DNA of 64,000 bases from an uncultured Alphaproteobacteria bacterium (GTDB lineage Bacteria > Pseudomonadota > Alphaproteobacteria > RF32 > CAG-239): the NCBI GenBank assembly GCA_944393205.1, contig CALXZI010000003.1, positions 643-64,642 on the forward strand, given 5' to 3'. Made by a program: the position numbers and the translations under genes. Shown piece by piece: positions 1-40,964 of this stretch. Under the pieces are notes generated by a model, which was given only the letters and a program-made list of their open reading frames with translations, searched no databases and was not told the origin of the DNA. Numbering within the stretch: position 1 is the stretch's first letter; every line of letters begins with the position of its first letter.

Positions 1-1
1 G

Positions 2-679
2 ACAAACGAGAATCCAGCGCAAAGCGTCAAATTGCTGCCGGTAGAAAACCAGCGCTTACGCTTTTTTTCACACGAAGAGGCCAAAAACCTGCTTGACCGA
101 TTAAAAAAAGTGCGTCCGGCCGGTGCGCCCGCGCGCGGCTACTTGTATTATAAAACCTATCAGACTTCACAAATTTACGAAATGGCTTTAATATCGCTAT
201 ATTGCGGCTGCCGCGCCGGTGAATTATATTCCCTTAAAGCAAACGATGTAAATTTTGCCACCGGATTTTTAACTATTCGCAAAAGCAAAAATCATAATGC
301 CCGCAACATACCGATGCCGCAAATTGTTATTGATATGCTAAAACAGCGCTTGGAATCTTTGCAAATTACAGGGGAAGCGCCGATTTTTCAAGACACGGAC
401 GGCGGCGAACTTTACGAAGTGCCGGATTGCTACCAGAAGATTGCCGATGAGCTTTTCAATCAGGGAATAGAAGACCGGCAGCAGCGCGCTGTTTTCCATA
501 CTTTGCGGCACACATACGCCAGCTGGCTTGTTATGTCCGGCGTGGACTTATACACCGTCAAAGAGCTTATGGGACACAAAACCCTTGCTATGACGATGCG
601 TTATGCTCACCTTGCGCCGAACAAATTTACAGCAGCTATTGCCGCCCTTAATCATTCCGCCGCCGATAACGAAGATTGA
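2..679 (+). CDS. int: Tyrosine recombinase / phage integrase, C-terminal catalytic domain; 5' end cut by window edge
   Basis: Reading frame is open to the window edge. Catalytic motifs are present: HTLRHTYAS...LMGHKTLAMTMRYAHL (R, HxxR, Y). Confidence 0.85.
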   Translation, partial: TNENPAQSVKLLPVENQRLRFFSHEEAKNLLDRLKKVRPAGAPARGYLYYKTYQTSQIYEMALISLYCGCRAGELYSLKANDVNFATGFLTIRKSKNHNARNIPMPQIVIDMLKQRLESLQITGEAPIFQDTDGGELYEVPDCYQKIADELFNQGIEDRQQRAVFHTLRHTYASWLVMSGVDLYTVKELMGHKTLAMTMRYAHLAPNKFTAAIAALNHSAADNED

Positions 680-858
680 TATTGTGCCATTTTCCCCAGC
701 GCTTTACTTTCCTTAAAACAAAGACGCTCGTAAAATTCCGCCTTTTTGCCCTTGTTAAATTCGGAAACCGGACGACAATATCCCATAACCCGTGTCCATA
801 TTTCGCATTTTTGCCGCTCGTTATCACTTAAAACAATCTCTTTTTCCATTTTGTTCAC
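652..858 (-). CDS. Small Cys-containing protein (68 aa); weak resemblance to the C-terminal glycyl-radical region of class III RNR (NrdD)
   Basis: Start codon overlaps the RNase H stop (ATGA). Contains RVMGYCRPVSEFNKGKKAEF, similar to the RVxGY...NKGK motif of NrdD. Confidence 0.35.
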   Translation of the reverse strand: MNKMEKEIVLSDNERQKCEIWTRVMGYCRPVSEFNKGKKAEFYERLCFKESKALGKMAQYQSSLSAAE

Positions 859-1286
859 CTTTCATAAAATTTAGCTCGGCCGGCTTTGGCCAGCATATCG
901 GCTATATTGTTGCCCATGGCGTGGCTTTGATAAACGCGCCTGTGTCCTTTTATTTTACCCACGCTCAAGCCTAATTTCCTTATTTTGTAAGCTATCAATT
1001 CACAATGCTTATGCCTTATATATTGCTCTTTTGTTCGCGGCTTATCTTTTATATTGCCGGCAATATAGGCAATGGCCGTTTGGCTGTCGGTATAAATTAT
1101 TCCCCGCTGTTCCGTTAAAATTCCGGCCAGATAAACCGCAAAAAGTTCGGCCTCATTATTAGACTGCGCTTTTATCCACGTTGAATATACACGCTCTTTT
1201 TCGCCTTTCTTTATCATAATGCCGATTCCGGCAATGTTCATCCGCTCATCAAACGAAGAATCCGCATAAGCAATTATTTCTTGCAA
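855..1286 (-). CDS. rnhA: Ribonuclease H (RNase HI-like)
   Basis: All catalytic motifs present: AYADSS (D), NNEAELFAV (E), IYTDSQ (D), H..GNNIADMLA (H/D). Confidence 0.8.
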   Translation of the reverse strand: MQEIIAYADSSFDERMNIAGIGIMIKKGEKERVYSTWIKAQSNNEAELFAVYLAGILTEQRGIIYTDSQTAIAYIAGNIKDKPRTKEQYIRHKHCELIAYKIRKLGLSVGKIKGHRRVYQSHAMGNNIADMLAKAGRAKFYER

Positions 1287-1504
1287 AGCTCCAACTCCTG
1301 CCGCAGCTTGTCAATTCTGCCGATCCATTCCCAGGTATTTGGAAAATCCTCTGCAGTCGCCTTTTCCAGTTCGGCCGCCACCGGCGCGCCGGCCACCGGA
1401 TATGTCGGACAAAAGTTATAATTGACCTGCGCGCATTTTGTTGAGCAGGCTGTCGCGGTTAGCATTAGGCTTGCTATAAATAACGCTTTTTTTAGTTTCC
1501 ACAT
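1274..1504 (-). CDS. o-spanin (Rz1-like) lipoprotein, overlapping the 3' part of Rz in another frame
   Basis: Signal peptide with Cys lipobox (MWKLKKALFIASLMLTATAC). Pro-rich mature region. Frame-shifted overlap with Rz. Confidence 0.65.
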   Translation of the reverse strand: MWKLKKALFIASLMLTATACSTKCAQVNYNFCPTYPVAGAPVAAELEKATAEDFPNTWEWIGRIDKLRQELELCKK

Positions 1505-1682
1505 TTTCCGCCTCCCGTTTTTGAACTTCCATAACCTCAATTTCATTGTTGCTGTGTTGTAAGGCGCATTCCGCCTGCACGCGTTTTTCAATTTGGTAAT
1601 TGCTCCAAAACCAAAAAGCGCCCAGCGCCACCGCCAAAATTACAACCCGCTCCAAAACGTCAATTATTTTCGCTTTTATCAT
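1416..1682 (-). CDS. i-spanin (Rz-like)
   Basis: N-terminal TM (VVILAVALGAFWFW) followed by a charged helical region. Sits after the holin and overlaps the lipoprotein ORF. Confidence 0.65.
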   Translation of the reverse strand: MIKAKIIDVLERVVILAVALGAFWFWSNYQIEKRVQAECALQHSNNEIEVMEVQKREAENVETKKSVIYSKPNANRDSLLNKMRAGQL

Positions 1683-2007
1683 TTCTGCCCCCTCTCACAA
1701 TTTCCACAACTGATTTGATTGTTTGCAAAGGCTTGTCAACCAAAAGCCTCAAAACAACGCTCAAAAAGTCAAAAATTTCACGAGCAAAGCTGCAACTTCC
1801 GCCGATTATGGCAAAAGTCAGATAAGCATTAACCCCCATGCCCATACAGATATTGCCGACAATCAGGCTTAAAGCTATGCTGGAAAAGACTTTTTTTATT
1901 TTGTCCGCCCTAGACAGCGATTCGCGTGTCCAAATAACGGAAAGCAAGCCGAAAATCATCCCGACAAGTCCAAACTCCAAAAGCAGTTCTTTGATTTCTC
2001 TCAACAT
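1660..2007 (-). CDS. Holin (3 predicted TM helices)
   Basis: 115 aa with three hydrophobic segments. Lies between endolysin and spanins with overlapping start/stop. Confidence 0.65.
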   Translation of the reverse strand: MLREIKELLLEFGLVGMIFGLLSVIWTRESLSRADKIKKVFSSIALSLIVGNICMGMGVNAYLTFAIIGGSCSFAREIFDFLSVVLRLLVDKPLQTIKSVVEIVRGGRNDKSENN

Positions 2008-2019
2008 CCACCACCCCCG

Positions 2020-2460
2020 TTAATCAATATTGTTGAAAAACAGGTGGTGGCCGATAACCATGCACGGCGCTTTTCCCTTTGCCCAGTTCGGCTGTGCGCA
2101 GGCTTTGGGGTTGTAATAGTGCGTTGCGCCTTTCGTTATGTCCTCAATTTCGCCATCGCACATTTTCTGCGCAATTTCCAAGCATTCGGCAAATTTCGGA
2201 TTCGCGGTTGTTACCTGTATGATTGTTTTGCGATTTGGGTCATTTTTATTCCAACACGAAAACTGCCACGGTTTAAGACAGGTCGCGGCAACGGTTGCCA
2301 CTTTGTAACCGTTGATTTCGCGCCAACCGCACATTTTTTTTCGCTTAACCCTATTTAAAATAACACAGGCAACCGCAATCTTGCCTTGCCTGCTTTCCCC
2401 TCTGGCCTCACCGTAAATGGTGCGCGCCAGCGTGTCTATGTCTACCAAATTACACATCAT
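2020..2460 (-). CDS. Endolysin, SleB/CwlJ-type cell wall hydrolase (Hydrolase_2 family)
   Basis: Motif TIYGEARGES..GKIAVACVILNRV characteristic of SleB-like cell wall hydrolases. First gene of the lysis cassette. Confidence 0.8.
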   Translation of the reverse strand: MMCNLVDIDTLARTIYGEARGESRQGKIAVACVILNRVKRKKMCGWREINGYKVATVAATCLKPWQFSCWNKNDPNRKTIIQVTTANPKFAECLEIAQKMCDGEIEDITKGATHYYNPKACAQPNWAKGKAPCMVIGHHLFFNNID

Positions 2461-2695
2461 TGCTCCTACCTTTATAAAATAAGAGCAATGCTCGGCGTTA
2501 AGTTATCTGCTATAATAATATGACAGCATTAAAAATTATTCAACGCTTATTATGTCGTTATATTCCGCCAGCGTGATATACTTGCCCACACAAGCCGCAA
2601 GCTCACGGCCGGAAATATAACCGGCTTCATACAGCCGACCGACACTTGCGCTTATTTTACAACCTTTAATAATTGCAAGCACGGCCAAATCAAAG

Positions 2696-2926
2696 CTATT
2701 CTTCTGCATTTTCCAGCTGTTCCCTCAACTGGCGGATTTCAGCGCGGCAGACTTCCGCCGCGGCTTCGTTGGCCAAATACTTATCAAGCGCAGGCGTTTC
2801 AAGCTCCGGATGCAGCTGTTTAAGCAACCGCGCGGTTTCAAACGCAACAATGCGTGCCGAATAGTCGCGCTGCTCCAAAACATTCATATTCTGGTTAATT
2901 TTATTTTGAATTTCATCTCTTGTCAT
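2696..2926 (-). CDS. Hypothetical 76-aa helical protein translationally coupled to the DGR RT
   Basis: Start overlaps the RT stop (ATGA). No recognisable motif. Confidence 0.5.
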   Translation of the reverse strand: MTRDEIQNKINQNMNVLEQRDYSARIVAFETARLLKQLHPELETPALDKYLANEAAAEVCRAEIRQLREQLENAEE

Positions 2927-4026
2927 TTTAGGTTACTCCACAAAATTTGCCGCATTTTCCAAACAGTCAGGCGGGCATCGCGGCGTTTCATACTGCCTGC
3001 CCAACTTTCCAAGGATTGCACAAGCTCCGACTTTTTCATCTCACCGGCCTTGACTATCCTTATTTGTTTTTTAAGCTTCCGCCGTTCCGTAACAATGCTT
3101 TTCCGGCAGGGCTTTTTAATAATTTTTCCGTTCTTTACAAGGTAAAATTTTGTTTTAAGCCACTTCACCCCGTTTTTTACATGAACAATCATTGTTTTCT
3201 TTACCGATAAAATTATTTTAAGCTTTTCACACAAACGCCTTAATATATCCAAAGCCTTTATAACCGTTGTTTTGTCTTTGGCCAAAACAAAACTGTCGTC
3301 CATATATCGGCCGTAATATGCGCCCGCGCAATGTTCCGTTATGGCGTGGTCTATTTCGCTCGGATAATATATTGCGTGCATCTGGCTTGTTTCCGAACCG
3401 AGGCCAAGTCCCAAACTTCCATAAGCATCAACAAAATCGTCAATATAGGCCAAAAGCTTTTTATCCTTAAAAATGCGGTGGTATTTTTCTTTCAAAACCT
3501 CATGATTGATATTTTCAAAATACCCCTTGAAATCCACCAAAAGAGCATAACCGCCAGCGCTGTTTTTCTTATAAAACCGCCGCAGCGCCTTTATAATCCT
3601 GTCGTTGGCAAATTTGACTCCTTTGCCTTTCTGGCTGGCCGAATTATCAAACAGTAACGATTTGGTATATACCGGATATAAAATATTATGGCATAAACAT
3701 TTTTGCACCACCCTTTCATAAAATTTAACCGCCGATATATTTCTTTGCTTGCCGCGCTCACACACGACAAACCGCGAAAATCCTTTGCGCACGTCTTTGC
3801 CAGCCTGCAAATCGCGGTATAATTTTTCGGTATTAAGAAGCTGGTTAATGCTCCACCTCTGCACCGTTCCTTTCCACATAACGTGCCGTTTGGCCAAATT
3901 TGCGGCATTATACAGATTTTTTCGGTTACAAAGCACTTCAAAATTATCATATAGCTGATAAAACGCCGCCCGTTTCGCTTCACGCTTGGCACGGCGTTTT
4001 TCAAATCGTTTTTCTCTTCTTGTCAT
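2923..4026 (-). CDS. DGR reverse transcriptase
   Basis: RT motifs: VDFKGYF (motif A), LGLGSETSQ (DGR-type GxxxSQ in place of QGxxSP), YGRYMDDSFVL (YxDD). Adjacent to the TR, avd and VR-bearing target gene. Confidence 0.9.
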   Translation of the reverse strand: MTRREKRFEKRRAKREAKRAAFYQLYDNFEVLCNRKNLYNAANLAKRHVMWKGTVQRWSINQLLNTEKLYRDLQAGKDVRKGFSRFVVCERGKQRNISAVKFYERVVQKCLCHNILYPVYTKSLLFDNSASQKGKGVKFANDRIIKALRRFYKKNSAGGYALLVDFKGYFENINHEVLKEKYHRIFKDKKLLAYIDDFVDAYGSLGLGLGSETSQMHAIYYPSEIDHAITEHCAGAYYGRYMDDSFVLAKDKTTVIKALDILRRLCEKLKIILSVKKTMIVHVKNGVKWLKTKFYLVKNGKIIKKPCRKSIVTERRKLKKQIRIVKAGEMKKSELVQSLESWAGSMKRRDARLTVWKMRQILWSNLK

Positions 4027-4255
4027 AATTCACCTTTTAAGCCTTGCAGGGCGGTTGGCGGATCTATACCCCACAATGCCCCGACTTAGTGCAGGCGTTC
4101 CGCCGCGTATAGCCTGCAATGCAACTCCATATTTCAGGGGCGTATCATCGGTCATCGTCAAAGCTCATATTTGCGTTAATTACGCGAGGTTTAACATTCC
4201 TTTCATTTTATTGCACAGTGTTCGGCCGTTATGGCCTACTAAGTCGGGCAGAAAA

Positions 4256-4384
4256 GAAATCAGAGCGGCGCGCGTATGTTCGTGTTGGTCGTGTTGTTGC
4301 AGTTCGCATTGCCGTTGCCGTTGACATTGCACGCGTTAGACGAACCACCGCCAGTGACTGACGAGAGCCAAAAGTTAGTGCGCC
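4256..4384 (-). repeat. DGR template repeat (TR), non-coding, between avd and RT
   Basis: About 129 bp, about 87% identical to VR (4898-5026) at a constant offset of 642. Of 17 mismatches in the aligned core, 16 are at TR adenines on the coding (-) strand. AAC codons are abundant in TR. Confidence 0.9.
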
Positions 4385-4395
4385 GAAATACAATA

Positions 4396-4812
4396 TTAAA
4401 CCTCTTTGCCGCCGACAACGTGTGAGTTCTTAATTGTTTTGTTTAACAACTCAATCTCATCAAGCAGCAAACCTGTTATTTCCCCAAGATTGCCAACCGT
4501 TACTGTTTGTATAACGTTTATCATGCACATCAGCTGGTTTTGCAGCTGATAACAGCCAATATATGCGCGCTGCAAATATTTTTTACGTTCTTCAAGCCGC
4601 TCTTGCGTGTTTGGAAACGTGTTATGCGCGCCGATAACATTGTTTAATATGCCGCATACGGTATGAATAGCCTCTTGCGCCAAAACAAAACGCCATTTTT
4701 TCGGCACGCGGTTTTCATTCATTAAATATTGTATCGTAACCTTTTGCAGCTGTTGCGCCGTTACCACATATTGTGTAGCGGTTTCTTTTCTGTTTCTTTT
4801 ATAAACTGGCAT
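4396..4812 (-). CDS. avd: Accessory variability determinant (Avd-like), basic helical protein
   Basis: About 139 aa, positively charged and predicted helical. Located between target gene and TR exactly as in BPP-1. Alternative start at 4854 overlaps the VR-flanking hairpin. Confidence 0.6.
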   Translation of the reverse strand: MPVYKRNRKETATQYVVTAQQLQKVTIQYLMNENRVPKKWRFVLAQEAIHTVCGILNNVIGAHNTFPNTQERLEERKKYLQRAYIGCYQLQNQLMCMINVIQTVTVGNLGEITGLLLDEIELLNKTIKNSHVVGGKEV

Positions 4813-4840
4813 ATTCTTCCTTGGGTTTGTGTTAGCAAAA

Positions 4841-4866
4841 AGCGCAGGGGACACTGCCCCTGCGCT
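4841..4866 (-). other. Perfect 10-bp stem hairpin immediately downstream of the VR/target gene stop
   Basis: agcgcagggg-acactg-cccctgcgct, located 21 nt past the target stop codon. Position and GC-rich stem match the hairpin/cruciform downstream of the IMH that BPP-1 needs for DGR homing. Confidence 0.6.
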
Positions 4867-4886
4867 GTTTTATGCGTTCGCTTCGC

Positions 4887-5936
4887 TTATGCGATATGAA
4901 AGCAGAGCGGCGCGCGTATGCCCGCGTAGGTCGTGTCGTAGCAGCCCGCAGTGCCGGTGCCGCTGACATTGCACGCGTAAGACGAACCACCGCCAGCGAC
5001 TGACGAGAGCCAAAAGTAGGGGCGCCCGAAGAGCAACCGACTTGCCGCCGACTTGAAAATATCCCACTGGCAATACGGACCGAATCCCTCCGGATTTTGT
5101 TGCGTCATAGATGGCTTGGTTGAGTGTATTAAACAGCCATACGCTTCTATTTCAGACGGCGCAAAAATCATACCGCGACCTTTCCAGTTCCAGCCGGTAT
5201 GGTCTGTCAGGGTTGCCGATGCGGAATATCTTTCCGGCATAAAACAGCGCTGCTCTTTCATATATCCGCGCAGCTTTGTGGAAAACGTCTGTAAATAGCC
5301 GTTGTCTGCTGCATTAAAGCCCACCGCACCGATATTATTTGTAGATGCGTTGTTAACCCCGTTCAAAACCGCATACAGTTTGGAGGCCTTAAACGGGTTG
5401 GCATCATAAGAAGAGCCGTTATTGTTATTAACCGTGTTAAATAGGACGTTCGCGGCCGAAAAACCGGCAAAAATTGTTAAATGGTGCGGCATTGCTGTAT
5501 CACCGGTGTTATAATACATATCAACCCCGGCAATCACGCATTTACGTTTCTGGCCACCGGCAACCGCCGTGCCGTCAACCGTTTTTGCAACAGTCGTGTC
5601 ATAAAAATAGTCAAACGGATAAATTCCCTCAAAATTGTTGGCCACACAACGGGCGTGCAGCCAGTCGGCCACCGTATCATAATTTGCAATTTCAGTGGCA
5701 AATTTCTCTTCCAAGTTTGTGCCTCTGTAAATTCCTTTTGCCAGTTGTTCAGCGATTCGCGCTTCCGACCGCAGGCCGGGCAGGCCTTTATACGCCGTTG
5801 TTCCGTCACCAACTTTAATTTCGCCGGTATCCGTTTCAAGAAAAAACTCGCCCAACCGCAAAACCTCATTCGCGCTTTTGGCGGCCGAACTTGAGCCTTG
5901 CCGGATTCTGATGCGTCTTGTAATTACGTCTGTCAT
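4887..5936 (-). CDS. mtd: DGR target: Mtd-like receptor-binding protein with C-type-lectin-like variable C-terminus
   Basis: N-terminal region (RIRIRQGSS...EFFLETDTGEIKVGDGTTAYKG) resembles the Bordetella Mtd N-terminal domain. C-terminus carries VR. Immediately after the tail fibre gene. The ORF extends to 6068; 5936 is the likely start (RBS GGAGA). Confidence 0.8.
   Translation of the reverse strand: MTDVITRRIRIRQGSSSAAKSANEVLRLGEFFLETDTGEIKVGDGTTAYKGLPGLRSEARIAEQLAKGIYRGTNLEEKFATEIANYDTVADWLHARCVANNFEGIYPFDYFYDTTVAKTVDGTAVAGGQKRKCVIAGVDMYYNTGDTAMPHHLTIFAGFSAANVLFNTVNNNNGSSYDANPFKASKLYAVLNGVNNASTNNIGAVGFNAADNGYLQTFSTKLRGYMKEQRCFMPERYSASATLTDHTGWNWKGRGMIFAPSEIEAYGCLIHSTKPSMTQQNPEGFGPYCQWDIFKSAASRLLFGRPYFWLSSVAGGGSSYACNVSGTGTAGCYDTTYAGIRAPLCFHIA
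4898..5026 (-). repeat. DGR variable repeat (VR) at the 3' end of the target gene
   Basis: Aligned to TR. Differences are confined to positions that are A in TR. Ends 9 nt before the stop codon. The shared GC-rich 3' segment (gagcggcgcgcg) is IMH-like. Confidence 0.9.
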
Positions 5937-5967
5937 ATTATTTCTCCATAAAGTTAAAGTAAAAAAA

Positions 5968-7185
5968 TCAAAGAACACCGCCGACAATCTCGTCAACCGT
6001 GGAATCGTCAGGCGTTCCGCCAAAAATTTCTGCATACCCGAGCAGCTCTTGCGCCTCTTCCAAAGCATCTAACGCGCTGTCTGCACTGTTTGCCGCTGAT
6101 GTTGCGCTGTTTTGTGCTGCCGTGGCATAAGGCTGTAAAACACTTGCCGCATAAGCAGATATTTCGGGTTTTGTCGTGTTATTAACATAATTGTTAATGT
6201 TCGTTTTGGCCGTGCCGTTAACATAGCTGTCAATCGCCGGTTTTGAGCTGCTGTTGACATAAGCGTCAATCGCCGGTTTTGTTGTGCCGTTAAGGTAGGA
6301 ATCTATTTGCCCGTGTGTGGTGGATATAATATACGCGTCAATATTATCTTGCGCCGCTTCAGTCACGGTTGTTTCGGCAGATTCCAAAACCTCATTTGCT
6401 GCCGCTATTGCTGCCGCCTCAACATCATCAACCGCCGCCGCAATCGTGTTTTGAATATTTTGTTGTGCGGTTTCAACCGTTTCTTCAACACTGGCCTCCG
6501 CCGCACTAACCGCTGCGTTAACGGTTGATATAGCTTCATCCTTGGTGTTGTTAATGGCCGTTGTCGCCTGTGTTTTGGTGGTGTTGATTTCCGTTTTGGC
6601 TGCATCCACATATTCCATAACGTCTTCAAGCGTTTCTTCCGCGCTTGCCACCGCTGCAGTCGCATTGTCGGCGGCCGTGGTGGCTGAATTTGCCGCACTT
6701 ATAGCCTGTGCGGCAATATCCGTGGCGCTGTCCAGCTTGGTATAAACTTCGTCAAGCAGTGCCTCCGGTGTCTGGCTGCCGGAAATCGTCACCTTAACGC
6801 AGCGGTCAAGCACTTCCTGATGCTGCTTCAAAATGGCCGTTACCTTATCAAAAGCGGCCTCTATGGATTCAGATGGAATCCGGCCAAATTCTTCCCAATC
6901 GGTCAGCTGCTCAATCGGTATGTTATAAACAATCGTCAGCTTCTTTCCGGCCGCCGGTGCGACAAGCATTGTCAACGTTCCGTTAACCGTGCCGGCAGCG
7001 GTAATGGTAAAATTTGTGTTTTCAACCTGCACAACTTCGTTTTCACCATCGGAATCCGCCAAAACAACTTTAATTTGTTTTGTTCCGTCCGGATTCGCAA
7101 AATAGGTAAACGGTACGGGAAAATTAACAGTTACACCATCGCCGGTATAAACCGCTCGCACCGGCATACTTGCTGGTATAGTCAT
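5968..7185 (-). CDS. Tail fibre protein (T7 gp17-like N-terminal adaptor domain plus Ala/Thr-rich repetitive shaft)
   Basis: N-terminus YTGDGVTVNFPVPFTYF...VVL resembles T7 gp17 (YQLDGSNRDFNIPFEYL...VVTL). Repetitive coiled-coil-like middle section. Confidence 0.7.
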   Translation of the reverse strand: MTIPASMPVRAVYTGDGVTVNFPVPFTYFANPDGTKQIKVVLADSDGENEVVQVENTNFTITAAGTVNGTLTMLVAPAAGKKLTIVYNIPIEQLTDWEEFGRIPSESIEAAFDKVTAILKQHQEVLDRCVKVTISGSQTPEALLDEVYTKLDSATDIAAQAISAANSATTAADNATAAVASAEETLEDVMEYVDAAKTEINTTKTQATTAINNTKDEAISTVNAAVSAAEASVEETVETAQQNIQNTIAAAVDDVEAAAIAAANEVLESAETTVTEAAQDNIDAYIISTTHGQIDSYLNGTTKPAIDAYVNSSSKPAIDSYVNGTAKTNINNYVNNTTKPEISAYAASVLQPYATAAQNSATSAANSADSALDALEEAQELLGYAEIFGGTPDDSTVDEIVGGVL

Positions 7186-7252
7186 ATTGCATCTCCAATA
7201 AAAAAGGAGGCCTTTTAAGCCTCCTGTCGGTTAAAATAAATAAAGCGGCTGT

Positions 7253-40268: not shown

Positions 40269-40692
40269 ATTAAAATACCGAATTTACGATACCGTTGATC
40301 GTGAATATGTAGAAGTTGATGCAATAAGGTTAACTCCGAACGGTATTATAGTTTGGCTGGAGAAAACAGAGCCGACTATTAACCTAAAACGGTATTTTAT
40401 TGAACTTTGTACAGGTTCAGAAGATAAAAATGGCAAGCTCATCTATGAGGGTGATATTGTTATAAATTCGCTAAACCGAGAAAGCCCTTACTACCAAGTC
40501 AAGTGGAATTCTGAATGTCTATCCTATTATTTTGAGCCAGTTGGAAATAGCAAAGATTTAGACGTGGAAATGCCTCTTGATATTGTATATGACGGGTATC
40601 ATAAAGAAAAGTATCAAAACGGATTTTATGACTTCTACGAGCCCTCTAGAACGGAAATCAAGTCTGATTTTTTGGCTCTTAATTTGCTTTAA
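40237..40692 (+). CDS. YopX-family phage protein
   Basis: KYRIYDTVDREY...DKNGKLIYEGDIV pattern typical of YopX. Last gene before the tRNA. Confidence 0.55.
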   Translation: MNYLRLKMQDRLKYRIYDTVDREYVEVDAIRLTPNGIIVWLEKTEPTINLKRYFIELCTGSEDKNGKLIYEGDIVINSLNRESPYYQVKWNSECLSYYFEPVGNSKDLDVEMPLDIVYDGYHKEKYQNGFYDFYEPSRTEIKSDFLALNLL

Positions 40693-40826
40693 TTTTCTTT
40701 AATTCTTATTACAAAAAGCTTGACTTTTCAAAGGTTTTAAGCTAAACAGGGTTTAATCATTCTTAATTGTTTTTAATTGCTTTTAATATGAAAATTGGGG
40801 ATAAATTGGGGACAGATTCACATTCC

Positions 40827-40873
40827 GGCCAAAAACAAAGGCTTTGCCGATTCCTCGCAAAGCCTTGATTTTC
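40827..40873. terminator. Bidirectional intrinsic terminator between phage early operon and tRNA-Leu
   Basis: Stem caaaggctttg...caaagccttg with a T-run on the + strand (atttt) and on the - strand (tttttgg). Confidence 0.6.
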
Positions 40874-40877
40874 CTAA

Positions 40878-40964
40878 TGGTGCGCTAGGCCGGAATCGAA
40901 CCGGCACGGGATTGCTCCCAACAGATTTTAAGTCTGCAGCGTCTACCTGTTCCGCCACAAGCGC
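40878..40964 (-). tRNA. tRNA-Leu (anticodon TAA), type II with long variable arm
   Basis: Reverse complement folds as: 7-bp acceptor stem (one U-U mismatch), D arm, anticodon stem-loop cuTAAaa, 14-nt variable arm, T arm GGTTCGATTCC, discriminator A plus encoded CCA. Confidence 0.85.

What the first reader, a model, noticed from the sequence alone, without database searches (positions are those of the whole stretch)
2923..5936. Complete BPP-1-style diversity-generating retroelement targeting an Mtd-like receptor-binding protein
All four DGR parts are present in canonical order on the - strand: target gene (4887-5936), avd (4396-4812), non-coding TR (4256-4384) and RT (2923-4026). The target has a C-terminal VR at 4898-5026. 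The RT has LGLGSETSQ (the GxxxSQ DGR signature) and YGRYMDDSF (YxDD). Aligning TR and VR base by base at an offset of 642 gives 17 mismatches in the core. Sixteen of them sit at positions that are adenine on the TR coding strand, and the VR carries C, G or T there. That is the adenine-specific mutagenesis pattern. TR is rich in AAC codons. The matching 3' GC-rich block (gagcggcgcgcg) looks like an IMH. The target follows a T7-type tail fibre, so the phage probably uses DGR to vary its distal receptor-binding protein. The host context appears to be an AT-rich alphaproteobacterium.
Basis: partly seen in the sequence, partly recalled or inferred. Interest (0 to 1): 0.9.

Follow-up and report, generated by a model that had tools for sequence, protein, structure and literature searches.

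The report
Active DGR on a prophage tail-fibre tip
This is a complete, evidently working diversity-generating retroelement in a prophage of an uncultured alphaproteobacterium: it rewrites the tip of a receptor-binding tail protein at programmed adenines, which makes it a clean example of a well-known system, not a new one.

Summary
TR 4256-4384 and VR 4898-5026 (- strand, offset 642) differ at 17 positions, 16 of them at TR adenines (hypergeometric P = 4e-11).

All canonical DGR parts are present:
- **RT:** its best solved relative is the BPP-1 bRT. It carries LGSETSQ and YMDD.
- **Avd:** a predicted four-helix bundle, 38% identical to the annotated Avd of Roseburia phage Shimadzu.
- **Target:** it has a Pfam Mtd_N domain and a predicted C-type-lectin-fold C-terminus.
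- **Other elements:** a GC-rich IMH and a conserved hairpin 3' of VR.

1. The TR-RT spacer is an Rfam family, RT-2 (RF03077).
2. The spacer forms a 13-bp long-range duplex with the avd 3' end. That duplex covaries across relatives and mirrors the BPP-1 "cPRT Stop".
3. Nine VR alleles from near-identical prophages in other metagenomes differ from their own TR at 145 adenine sites and only 5 other sites. VR diversity is about 10 times that of the flanks, so the element diversifies in nature.

Verdict: interpretation supported; a new member of a known kind; moderate interest.

The parts
4887..5936 (-). DGR target gene, 349 aa. N-terminal Mtd_N domain (aa 9-47) and a C-terminal C-type-lectin-fold domain that carries the VR. 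Putative distal receptor-binding protein.
4898..5026 (-). Variable repeat (VR), the last 43 codons of the target. Across alleles, substitutions at A-templated positions span VR 4917-5023 (TR 4275-4381).
   Evidence: Hypervariable residues among cluster members are 306, 307, 314, 320, 323, 325, 327, 329, 331, 333, 334 and 337-340.
4898..4916 (-). IMH-like 3' end of VR: CGCGCGCCGCTCTGCTTTC. It has C at 4902 where the TR has A.
   Evidence: The A(TR)/C(VR) difference right after ...CTG or ...GG recurs in most RT-2-type DGRs examined.
4841..4866 (-). GC-rich inverted repeat 3' of VR: AGCGCAGGGG-CAGTGT-CCCCTGCGCT, a 10-bp stem starting 32 nt after the VR end. In this copy it is followed by T5.
   Evidence: In 8 relatives the position is kept (+20 to +34) and the stems show compensatory changes. 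Several copies lack a T-run, so it is not simply a terminator. Compare Guo et al. 2011, PMC3240598.
4396..4812 (-). avd, 138 aa: accessory variability determinant, a four-helix bundle.
   Evidence: Model pLDDT 84 with four helices. Top Foldseek matches are 2rld and 2gsc (deposited as S23 ribosomal protein family and a conserved hypothetical protein) and BPP-1 Avd 8ub7_B-E and 4dwl, TM 0.6-0.86, prob 1.0. 38% identity, E 7e-32, to the protein annotated Avd in Roseburia phage Shimadzu. NCBIfam DivGenRetAVD scores only E 0.0016, below its cut-off.
4392..4404 (-). 5' strand of the long-range DGR-RNA duplex (GAGGUUUAAUAUU). It spans the avd stop codon and ends 7 nt before the TR.
4256..4384 (-). 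Template repeat (TR), non-coding. It holds 31 adenines, in 9 AAC, 2 AAT, 5 ACN and 1 ATA codons plus singles when read in the VR frame. Its 3' end is the IMH* CGCGCGCCGCTCTGATTTC (4256-4274).
   Evidence: The TR is nearly invariant among nine close relatives (pi 0.013) while the VR is not (pi 0.143).
4019..4253 (-). Structured spacer RNA between TR and RT, Rfam RF03077 'RT-2 RNA'. It is the Sp part of the DGR RNA.
   Evidence: 52 bits against a gathering score of 40, E 4e-9 over the whole window. It is the most conserved segment among close relatives, with 1 segregating site in 229. RT-2 was found upstream of the RT in 38 of 40 RT relatives scanned, in all 8 Avd relatives and in phage Shimadzu.
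4186..4198 (-). 3' strand of the long-range duplex (AAUGUUAAACCUC), in a stretch the Rfam model leaves unpaired.
4164..4185 (-). Short stem-loop GCGUAAUUAACGC (4173-4185) followed by the A-rich AAAUAUGAG (4164-4172). It matches the stem-loop plus adenosines of the BPP-1 cPRT Stop.
   Evidence: BPP-1 description in bioRxiv 10.1101/2023.10.23.563531.
2923..4026 (-). DGR reverse transcriptase, 367 aa. LGSETSQ at residues 209-215, YMDD at 241-244, catalytic Asp in LLVDF at residue 165.
   Evidence: Pfam RVT_1, E 1e-17. Best PDB match is 8ub7_A, the RT chain of the entry released as the DGR ribonucleoprotein RT: E 6e-17 with the single sequence and 2.3e-30 with the profile, against 1.8e-15 for the best group II RT. 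bRT F66, R74 and I76 align with identical residues and bRT I181 aligns with Leu. PHROG 1423 reverse transcriptase, E 1.5e-65.
5968..7185 (-). Upstream tail-fibre protein, 405 aa. It has an N-terminal podovirus-type anchor domain followed by an Ala/Thr-rich repetitive shaft. It is the likely carrier of the DGR target.
   Evidence: PHROG 1640 'tail protein', E 1e-23, residues 10-121. The PDB Dpo31/Dpo36 tailspike N-terminus matches residues 1-137, E 1.3e-10.

Best explanation
Window 2923-5936 (- strand) is a functional BPP-1-type diversity-generating retroelement. It lies in a ~41.7-kb temperate podovirus-like prophage inserted at tRNA-Leu of an uncultured, low-GC alphaproteobacterium.

Proposed mechanism:
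1. The avd-TR-spacer-RT region is transcribed.
2. The RNA, made of the avd 3' end, the TR and the RT-2 spacer, folds around an RT-Avd complex.
3. A 13-bp duplex between 4392-4404 and 4186-4198, together with the adjacent stem-loop and A-rich stretch, brackets the TR. This mirrors the BPP-1 'cPRT Stop'.
4. A spacer nucleotide just 5' of that duplex, in the conserved AUGAAAGG at 4199-4206, primes cDNA synthesis in the IMH* end of the TR.
5. The RT copies the TR faithfully except opposite adenines, where any base is inserted.
6. The cDNA replaces the VR (4898-5026). The GC-rich IMH and the downstream hairpin (4841-4866) guide this step.
7. The result re-randomises about 17 codons: 11 AAY codons can each yield 15 amino acids, 5 ACN codons can each yield 4, and ATA can yield 5. 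That is about 4e16 possible proteins on the C-type-lectin-fold face of an Mtd-like protein. That protein probably sits at the tip of the tail fibre encoded just upstream, and the variation changes receptor specificity.

What is shown:
- The parts, the A-specific TR/VR pattern and the RT family.
- The Avd and CLec folds (as predictions).
- The RT-2 match and the covarying long-range duplex.
- Natural VR hypervariation templated by the TR.

What is inferred by analogy with BPP-1:
- The priming site.
- The cDNA stop function of the duplex.
- The role of the hairpin.
- The trimeric tip location and receptor binding.
For: **TR/VR pattern.** 16 of 17 mismatches are at TR adenines, P = 4e-11.

**Population test.**
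- The target's 90%-identity cluster has 37 members, against 18 for Avd and 20 for the RT.
- Fourteen listed variants of the same length (a fifteenth, P0006, is one residue shorter) differ almost only at residues templated by A-containing TR codons.
- At the DNA level there are nine VR alleles in ten loci. Each was compared with its own TR: 145 A>N changes (49 C, 49 G, 47 T) against 5 non-A changes. 29 of 31 TR adenines vary.
- A G/T polymorphism in the TR (window 4332) is mirrored in the cognate VRs.
- pi is 0.143 in the VR, 0.012-0.018 in the target, avd and RT, and 0.001 in the spacer.

**RT.** bRT is the best solved relative. GxxxSQ and YMDD are present.

**Avd.** Fold and homology agree.

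**Target.** Mtd_N plus a CLec fold.

**RT-2 RNA.** Rfam match in the window. Of 45 RT-2-bearing loci (the window and 44 relatives), 44 have a TR/VR pair, with 641 of 687 mismatches at A.

**Long-range duplex.** It is 13 bp in the window. At least 33 of 45 loci have an 11-13-bp helix. In a stacked alignment of 29 loci, 10 of 11 pairs show double-sided changes, 100% of cells pair (72% in shuffles), and the covariation score is 0.877 against 0.277.

**Hairpin 3' of VR.** It is conserved with compensatory changes.

**Closest annotated phage.** Roseburia phage Shimadzu has the same layout, tail fibre-Avd-RT-2-RT. DGR diversification has been reported for it (PMC11792537).
Against: - No biochemical or read-level data for this exact copy. 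Six contigs that carry an identical RT are clonal with the window (0-4 SNPs in 6-14 kb) and have the same VR, so they say nothing about current activity.
- The Avd reaches neither the Pfam nor the NCBIfam threshold, and Foldseek E-values for a helical bundle are weak, about 1e-2.
- The hairpin loop is 6 nt (CAGTGT), not the 4-nt GRNA consensus described for phage DGRs. In this copy it could simply be the terminator of the target gene.
- The rows for the covariation count were chosen because they had a helix, which inflates the percentage paired.
- Five non-A substitutions, and a 3-nt deletion in one VR allele, show that transfer is not perfectly clean or that the TR has changed since.
Confidence: 0.93

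Rival explanations
1. The DGR is a recently silenced fossil in this particular prophage copy. Its parts are intact, but the VR is now fixed, and the diversity seen among relatives dates from earlier activity or arises only in other lineages.
For: All six contigs with an identical RT carry exactly the same VR. One more distant relative, L100, has its RT ORF cut at 131 aa, so decay does occur in this family.
Against: Those six contigs are clonal, with 0-4 SNPs in 6-14 kb, so an identical VR is expected. The RT, Avd, TR, IMH, spacer RNA and hairpin are all intact. Close relatives with only 1-2% flank divergence each have a different VR, which implies turnover faster than ordinary divergence.
Confidence: 0.08
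2. The target is diversified by the DGR but is not the host-receptor-binding protein. It might be, for example, a virion decoration or adhesin that binds environmental or mucosal glycans.
For: The receptor-binding role is inferred only from gene order, the Mtd_N domain and analogy. The best structural match is a domain of a bacterial IgA peptidase, and DUF6273-type DGR targets in gut phages have no proven function.
Against: The gene lies directly after a tail fibre with a podovirus anchor domain. It starts with the Mtd_N/HylP-type tail-fibre N-terminal module. The homologue in phage Shimadzu is annotated as a tail fibre protein.
Confidence: 0.12
3. The RT belongs to another retroelement (group II intron, retron, or a defence RT such as DRT/Abi), and the 129-nt repeat is an ordinary duplication under diversifying selection.
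For: NCBIfam and PADLOC give only sub-threshold or generic RT hits: group II maturase at 67.8 bits against a cut-off of 300, and various DRT/UG models.
Against: bRT is by far the best solved relative and the GxxxSQ motif is present. There are no intron RNA domains, and Rfam finds only RT-2. Substitutions sit at TR adenines with an even C/G/T spectrum, and the TR is conserved while the VR varies. Selection on a duplicate cannot produce that pattern.
Confidence: 0.01

Closest known systems
Bordetella phage BPP-1 DGR (mtd-avd-TR-brt)
   Same: - Same gene order, in a short-tailed phage with a tail-fibre tip target.
- The RT is the closest solved relative. The Avd has the four-helix-bundle fold.
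- The target has an Mtd_N domain and a C-terminal CLec fold carrying the VR.
- AAC-rich TR, GC-rich IMH and a hairpin 3' of the VR.
- The DGR RNA has an upstream:spacer duplex followed by a stem-loop and adenosines.
   Different: - Identity to bRT was not tabulated. phmmer aligns residues 60-357 to bRT 40-319 with E 6e-17.
- The Avd is not detectable by sequence against PDB.
- The target C-terminus has no sequence similarity to Mtd.
- The spacer belongs to Rfam RT-2, not RT-10, which is the BPP-1 spacer motif.
- The repeats differ by a single A/C just after the shared GC-rich block and CTCTG, then diverge from 4255/4897 on; in BPP-1 IMH and IMH* are described as nearly identical.
- The hairpin loop is 6 nt, not GRNA.
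Roseburia phage Shimadzu DGR (LR596903.1, orf22-orf24)
   Same: It is the closest annotated phage. RT is 46% identical, Avd 38% and the tail-fibre target 28%. The order is the same, tail fibre-Avd-TR-RT, and its RT-2 RNA scores 144.9 bits. DGR diversification has been reported for it (PMC11792537).
   Different: - Shimadzu has baseplate J and P2 gpI-type tail genes. This prophage has podovirus-like genes instead: a head-tail adaptor, an internal virion protein and a tailspike-type anchor.
- The host of Shimadzu is a Firmicute; here it is an alphaproteobacterium.
- Shimadzu is reported to diversify two proteins. Only one VR exists in this 64-kb window.
Rfam RF03077 RT-2 RNA (Weinberg et al. 2017)
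   Same: Window 4019-4253 matches the full-length model at 52 bits, above the gathering score of 40, directly upstream of an RT gene.
   Different: The original paper assigned only RT-10 to a DGR and speculated that other RT motifs might be DGR parts. Here RT-2 always follows a TR with A-biased VR mismatches. A stretch that the Rfam model leaves unpaired forms a covarying duplex with sequence upstream of the TR, outside the Rfam model.
DUF6273 (PF19789)-type DGR targets of gut phages; TvpA and other CLec-fold DGR targets
   Different: The window protein itself does not hit PF19789 in hmmscan, even at E up to 10.

Membership tests
Diversity-generating retroelement (DGR) | RT of the DGR clade, with the motif-4 signature [ILV]GxxxSQ and YxDD | tested here: met
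   LGSETSQ at residues 209-215 and YMDD at 241-244. The best PDB relative is bRT 8ub7_A, E 6e-17 with the single sequence and 2.3e-30 with the profile, against 1.8e-15 for group II. No full RT phylogeny was run.
Diversity-generating retroelement (DGR) | TR/VR repeat pair whose differences fall at TR adenines | tested here: met
   16 of 17 in the window, P = 4e-11. 145 of 150 across nine alleles.
Diversity-generating retroelement (DGR) | VR at the 3' end of a protein-coding target; TR non-coding and next to the RT | tested here: met
   The VR forms the last 43 codons of the 349-aa ORF. The TR lies 11 nt after the avd stop and 229 nt before the RT start.
Diversity-generating retroelement (DGR) | Accessory protein Avd (four-helix bundle, pentamer-forming) | tested here: met
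   Four-helix model, pLDDT 84. Top fold matches are 2rld, 2gsc and BPP-1 Avd. 38% identity to an annotated Avd. The sequence models are below threshold, and the oligomeric state was not tested.
Diversity-generating retroelement (DGR) | IMH at the VR 3' end and a slightly different IMH* at the TR 3' end, giving directionality | tested here: met
   Both repeats share the 10-nt GC run plus CTCTG, then A (TR 4260) versus C (VR 4902), with divergence from 4255/4897 on. The same A/C discriminator appears in most related DGRs. Its function is not testable here.
Diversity-generating retroelement (DGR) | GC-rich hairpin/cruciform 4-34 bp 3' of the VR with a 4-nt GRNA loop (Guo et al. 2011) | tested here: inconclusive
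   A 10-bp GC-rich stem lies at +32 and is conserved with compensatory changes in relatives. However, the loop is 6 nt (CAGTGT), and in this copy a T5 run follows, so it may also be a terminator.
Diversity-generating retroelement (DGR) | DGR RNA architecture: upstream(avd):spacer duplex, adjacent stem-loop and adenosines (cPRT Stop; Handa et al.) | tested here: met
   13-bp duplex between 4392-4404 and 4186-4198, then a stem-loop at 4173-4185 and AAAUAU. Covariation across 29 loci. The priming nucleotide was not identified.
Diversity-generating retroelement (DGR) | VR actually varies among closely related genomes while the TR stays constant | tested here: met
Diversity-generating retroelement (DGR) | Adenine-mutagenic cDNA synthesis and retrohoming, shown biochemically or genetically | not testable with these tools
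   This needs cDNA sequencing and RT-mutant controls.
Mtd (BPP-1 major tropism determinant) family | N-terminal Mtd_N domain | tested here: met
   PF18454, 31.4 bits against a cut-off of 26.3.
Mtd (BPP-1 major tropism determinant) family | C-terminal CLec-fold domain homologous to that of Mtd | tested here: inconclusive
Pfam DUF6273 (PF19789) DGR-target domain | Match to the PF19789 model | tested here: not met
   hmmscan of the window protein at E up to 10 returns only Mtd_N. More distant homologues do carry PF19789 in the precomputed annotation.
Rfam RF03077 RT-2 RNA | Covariance-model score at or above the gathering threshold, located upstream of an RT gene | tested here: met
   52.0 bits against 40, full-length model, ending at the RT start codon.

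The most novel reading that the evidence does not exclude
The Rfam 'RT-2' motif, published as an RT-associated RNA of unknown role, would be the spacer (Sp) part of the DGR RNA for a large clade of phage DGRs. That clade includes Roseburia phage Shimadzu and hundreds of IMG/VR contigs.

Its Rfam-unpaired linker would form a covarying 11-13-bp long-range duplex with the 3' end of avd, bracketing the TR. In that case the BPP-1 cis-priming/stop architecture is conserved in a second, sequence-unrelated spacer family.

A single conserved nucleotide (A in TR, C in VR, right after ...CTG or ...GG) would act as the IMH/IMH* directionality mark in this clade.
Probability: 0.7. Interest if true: 0.4.

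Novelty: new member of a known kind. Interest (0 to 1): 0.35.

Why it matters
**As a DGR it is ordinary.** Thousands are catalogued, many in gut phages. Its value is as an unusually clean natural example. It has a complete set of cis and trans parts, a single target, and a series of near-isogenic prophages whose only substantial difference is the VR. That gives direct evidence of ongoing tropism-protein diversification in phages of an uncultured alphaproteobacterial lineage.

**It also gives an Rfam orphan a function.** RT-2 becomes the DGR spacer RNA, and the model extends with a covarying long-range helix. That helix can help annotate TR boundaries and cDNA stop sites in this DGR clade. It also supports the generality of the BPP-1 cis-priming mechanism.

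Tried and rejected
- **megablast against the phage collection.** The 4.5-kb region gave no match.
- **Sequence searches of Avd and target against PDB.** phmmer and profile searches gave only chance or N-terminal HylP-type hits. Structure prediction was needed.
- **Pfam for Avd.** Nothing.
- **Contigs with an identical RT (L001-L006) as a population sample.** They proved clonal with the window and uninformative. Variants had to be reached through the 90%-identity cluster of the target protein.
- **RNAduplex with large internal loops.** Output was messy, so I switched to contiguous-helix scans with shuffles.
- **MFE folding of the spacer alone.** Not significant, z = -1.1. The evidence for structure comes from the Rfam model and covariation, not from energy.
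- **PADLOC.** Only generic RT-domain hits, with no defence-system assignment.
- **A second, remote VR.** Searched for with A>N-degenerate TR patterns and IMH patterns on both strands of the window. None found.
- **Priming nucleotide.** I tried to place it by hand-pairing the U-rich TR/Sp junction with AUAAAAUGAAAGG. A 4+3-bp interrupted duplex is possible but not convincing, so this is left as inference.

Full report
**1. The observation**

On the - strand, 4256-4384 (TR) and 4898-5026 (VR) align without gaps at an offset of 642. There are 17 mismatches. Sixteen are at positions that are A in the TR (8 A>G, 4 A>C, 4 A>T), and one is T>C at TR 4377. The repeat finder finds the same pair independently, at 86% identity. 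The TR core has 31 A in 129 nt, so this enrichment has hypergeometric P = 4.2e-11.

Read in the VR frame, the TR encodes RTNFWLSSVTGGGSSNACNVNGNGNANCNNTTNTNIRAPL*. It holds 9 AAC and 2 AAT codons, and 28 of its 31 adenines are in codon positions 1 or 2. A-randomisation of the AAY, ACN and ATA codons cannot create a stop. Only one VR exists in the 64-kb window.

**2. The proteins**

*RT (2923-4026).*
- It hits Pfam RVT_1.
- Among solved structures its best match is 8ub7_A, the 328-aa RT chain of the entry released as the DGR ribonucleoprotein RT. E is 6e-17 with the single sequence and 2.3e-30 with a seven-member family profile, which covers chain residues 10-314.
- The best group II RT scores 5.6e-8 and 1.8e-15 respectively.
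- It carries LGSETSQ, which fits [ILV]GxxxSQ, at residues 209-215, and YMDD at 241-244.
- bRT residues F66, R74 and I76 align with identical residues, and I181 aligns with Leu.
- NCBIfam and PADLOC give only sub-threshold or generic RT hits.

*Avd (4396-4812).*
- It has no Pfam hit and only a weak NCBIfam DivGenRetAVD hit, E 0.0016.
- With a 24-sequence alignment, AlphaFold gives a four-helix bundle with pLDDT 84.
- Its top Foldseek matches are 2rld, 2gsc and BPP-1 Avd itself (8ub7_B-E, 4dwl), with TM 0.6-0.86.
- It is 38% identical (E 7e-32) to the protein annotated Avd in Roseburia phage Shimadzu.

*Target (4887-5936).*
- It has a Pfam Mtd_N domain above the gathering score.
- Its model has pLDDT 90.4.
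- So the VR sits in a CLec-fold domain, but the protein is Mtd-like in architecture and not an Mtd orthologue.

*Upstream 405-aa protein.* Its N-terminus resembles podovirus tail-fibre/tailspike anchor domains. This fits the idea that the target caps that fibre, which remains an inference.

**3. The RNA and cis elements**

The 229-nt TR-RT spacer matches Rfam RF03077 'RT-2 RNA' over the full model, 52 bits against a gathering score of 40. The paper that defined the RT motifs tied only RT-10 to a DGR, as the BPP-1 spacer, and speculated that other RT motifs might also be DGR parts (PMC5737381).

RT-2 behaves as a DGR component in relatives:
- All 8 IMG/VR relatives found through Avd have RT-2.
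- So do 38 of 40 relatives found through the RT and scanned, and phage Shimadzu.
- Of 45 RT-2-bearing loci (the window and 44 relatives), 44 have a TR/VR pair directly upstream, and 641 of 687 mismatches are at TR adenines.

In BPP-1 the spacer pairs with the avd 3' end in an 11-13-bp 'cPRT Stop' duplex. A short stem-loop and adenosines follow it, and the priming adenosine lies two nucleotides 5' of it (bioRxiv 10.1101/2023.10.23.563531). The window shows the same arrangement:
- 4392-4404 (GAGGUUUAAUAUU), which spans the avd stop codon and ends 7 nt before the TR, pairs over 13 contiguous bp with 4186-4198 (AAUGUUAAACCUC).
- That second strand lies in a stretch the Rfam model leaves unpaired.
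- The stem-loop GCGUAAUUAACGC and then AAAUAU follow it. The conserved AUGAAAGG precedes it.
- At least 33 of 45 loci have an 11-13-bp helix at the same place.
- In 29 distinct helices stacked in register, 10 of 11 pairs show double-sided changes (92 cells). All cells pair, against 72% in shuffles and 36-45% when the partner is slid. The covariation score is 0.877 against 0.277. The caveat is that these rows were chosen for having a helix.
- Among close relatives the spacer is the most conserved segment of the element (pi 0.001).

At the 3' end, both repeats share CGCGCGCCGCTCTG. Then the TR has A (4260) and the VR has C (4902). The same A/C difference recurs in most related DGRs. It never varies among the nine alleles, so it behaves as an IMH/IMH* mark and not as a mutagenised site.

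A 10-bp GC-rich inverted repeat (4841-4866) starts 32 nt after the VR. In relatives it keeps its position and pairing through compensatory changes, and several copies have no T-run after it. This fits the target-site hairpin described for phage DGRs, which has 7-10-bp GC stems 4-34 bp from the VR (PMC3240598). The loop here is 6 nt, however, not GRNA.

**4. Is it active?**

Contigs with an identical RT (L001-L006) are clonal with the window and carry the same VR, so they are uninformative.

The 90%-identity cluster of the target protein is informative:
- It has 37 members, against 18 for Avd and 20 for the RT.
- The 14 listed same-length variants differ from the window protein at 11-17 residues each. 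Almost all of those are residues 306, 307, 314, 320, 323, 325, 327, 329, 331, 333, 334 and 337-340, which are the A-containing TR codons. A fifteenth listed member, P0006, is one residue shorter.

I fetched DNA for nine such loci and compared each VR with its own TR:
- There are 145 A>N substitutions (49 C, 49 G, 47 T) and 5 non-A substitutions.
- 29 of 31 TR adenines vary in at least one allele.
- One allele has a 3-nt deletion in AACAAC.
- A G/T polymorphism in the TR (window 4332), and TR changes in L009, L010 and L011, are mirrored in the cognate VRs.

Nucleotide diversity is 0.143 in the VR, against 0.018 in the rest of the target, 0.014 in avd, 0.013 in the TR and 0.012 in the RT. It shows TR-templated, adenine-specific diversification in natural populations of this phage lineage. 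It does not prove that this very copy is active now.

**5. Context**

- Window positions ~1-40.9 kb (44-50% GC) carry phage genes: terminase, head-tail adaptor, major head protein, internal virion protein, tail proteins, a 3550-aa polyvalent protein, a lysis cassette, RNase H and an integrase.
- The right end abuts tRNA-Leu(taa) at 40878-40964. Sequence beyond the integrase on contig L001 repeats window 40660-40936, which is the att duplication.
- Several contigs carrying the phage are about 41 kb long.
- Host DNA is 33-41% GC.
- PNPase next to the prophage is 83% identical to uncultured Alphaproteobacteria/proteobacterium MAGs (RUG13362, BRZ_KG bin92) and 64% or less to Azospirillum and other Alphaproteobacteria. 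The species itself was not found among the genome representatives.

**6. Comparison and verdict**

The element works like the BPP-1 DGR and meets every DGR membership feature that could be tested in silico. The hairpin loop consensus is the one inconclusive item.

Its closest annotated relative is the DGR of Roseburia phage Shimadzu: RT 46%, Avd 38%, tail fibre 28%, same order, RT-2 present. DGR diversification has been reported for that phage (PMC11792537).

This is a new member of a known kind. The modestly new points are the functional assignment and extension of the RT-2 RNA motif, and the clean near-isogenic allele series. Interest is 0.35.

Noticed in passing
window 1-40964; L001 14588-14801: The DGR sits in a prophage of about 41.7 kb. 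The integrase (32-679, +) is cut by the window start, and the other end abuts tRNA-Leu(taa) at 40878-40964. Sequence beyond the integrase on contig L001 repeats window 40660-40936, which is the att duplication. Several metagenome contigs carrying the phage are 41.0-41.4 kb long and are probably complete free genomes.
   Followed up: partly
window 7253-17905 (-): A 3550-aa ORF between the tail genes and the tail fibre. It has Pfam hits to ddrB-ParB, LPD1, LPD3, DUF3990 and ART-PolyVal, so it is a giant 'polyvalent protein'. Its length varies (3328-3609 aa) among near-identical prophages.
   Followed up: no
window 652-858 (-) and 855-1286 (-): A 68-aa ORF hits Pfam NRDD (PF13597). It looks like a stand-alone C-terminal glycyl-radical piece of anaerobic ribonucleotide reductase (...TRVMGYCRPVSEFNKGKKAEF...). 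It lies directly downstream of, and overlaps by 4 nt, a phage RNase H gene. Whether the RNase H assists DGR cDNA processing is unknown.
   Followed up: no
TR 4260 / VR 4902; L097-L184: Read in the VR frame, the TR has TGA where the VR has TGC (Cys). This A(TR)/C(VR) difference right after ...CTG or ...GG is fixed in all nine alleles and recurs in most RT-2-type DGRs. A sub-group instead has TR GGCTCCT against VR GGCTTCT. It is a candidate single-nucleotide IMH/IMH* discriminator.
   Followed up: partly
L007 6001-7047 (VR) vs L007 7539-7689 (TR): One natural VR allele lacks 3 nt relative to its own TR, inside the AACAAC repeat (348-aa target). This suggests slippage during cDNA synthesis or integration.
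   Followed up: partly
TR idx 119 (window 4276); L009, L012, L014: The T>G change that turns ATA into AGA occurs in the VRs of L012 and L014 but not in their TRs. In L009 both the TR and the VR carry G. This hints at TR allele turnover or recombination between phages, and not at RT error.
   Followed up: no
L100 3806-4201: In one IMG/VR relative (Avd 50% identical) the RT ORF stops after 131 aa, although TR/VR (15 of 15 mismatches at A) and RT-2 are intact. It may be a decaying DGR or an assembly error.
   Followed up: no
window 4880-4886 (-): GCGAAGC follows the target stop codon immediately, within GCGAAGCGAACGC. From my own knowledge this heptamer is known as an extraordinarily stable DNA mini-hairpin. 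Similar sequence is kept in L098 and L100 and partly in L097 and L099.
   Followed up: no
L003 vs window 1-13587: Contig L003 differs from the window at only 4 positions in 13.6 kb, none of them in the VR. The other five contigs are 100% identical, so the same clone is present in several samples (BRZ_*, ONAT22-1, ERR40966xx).
   Followed up: no
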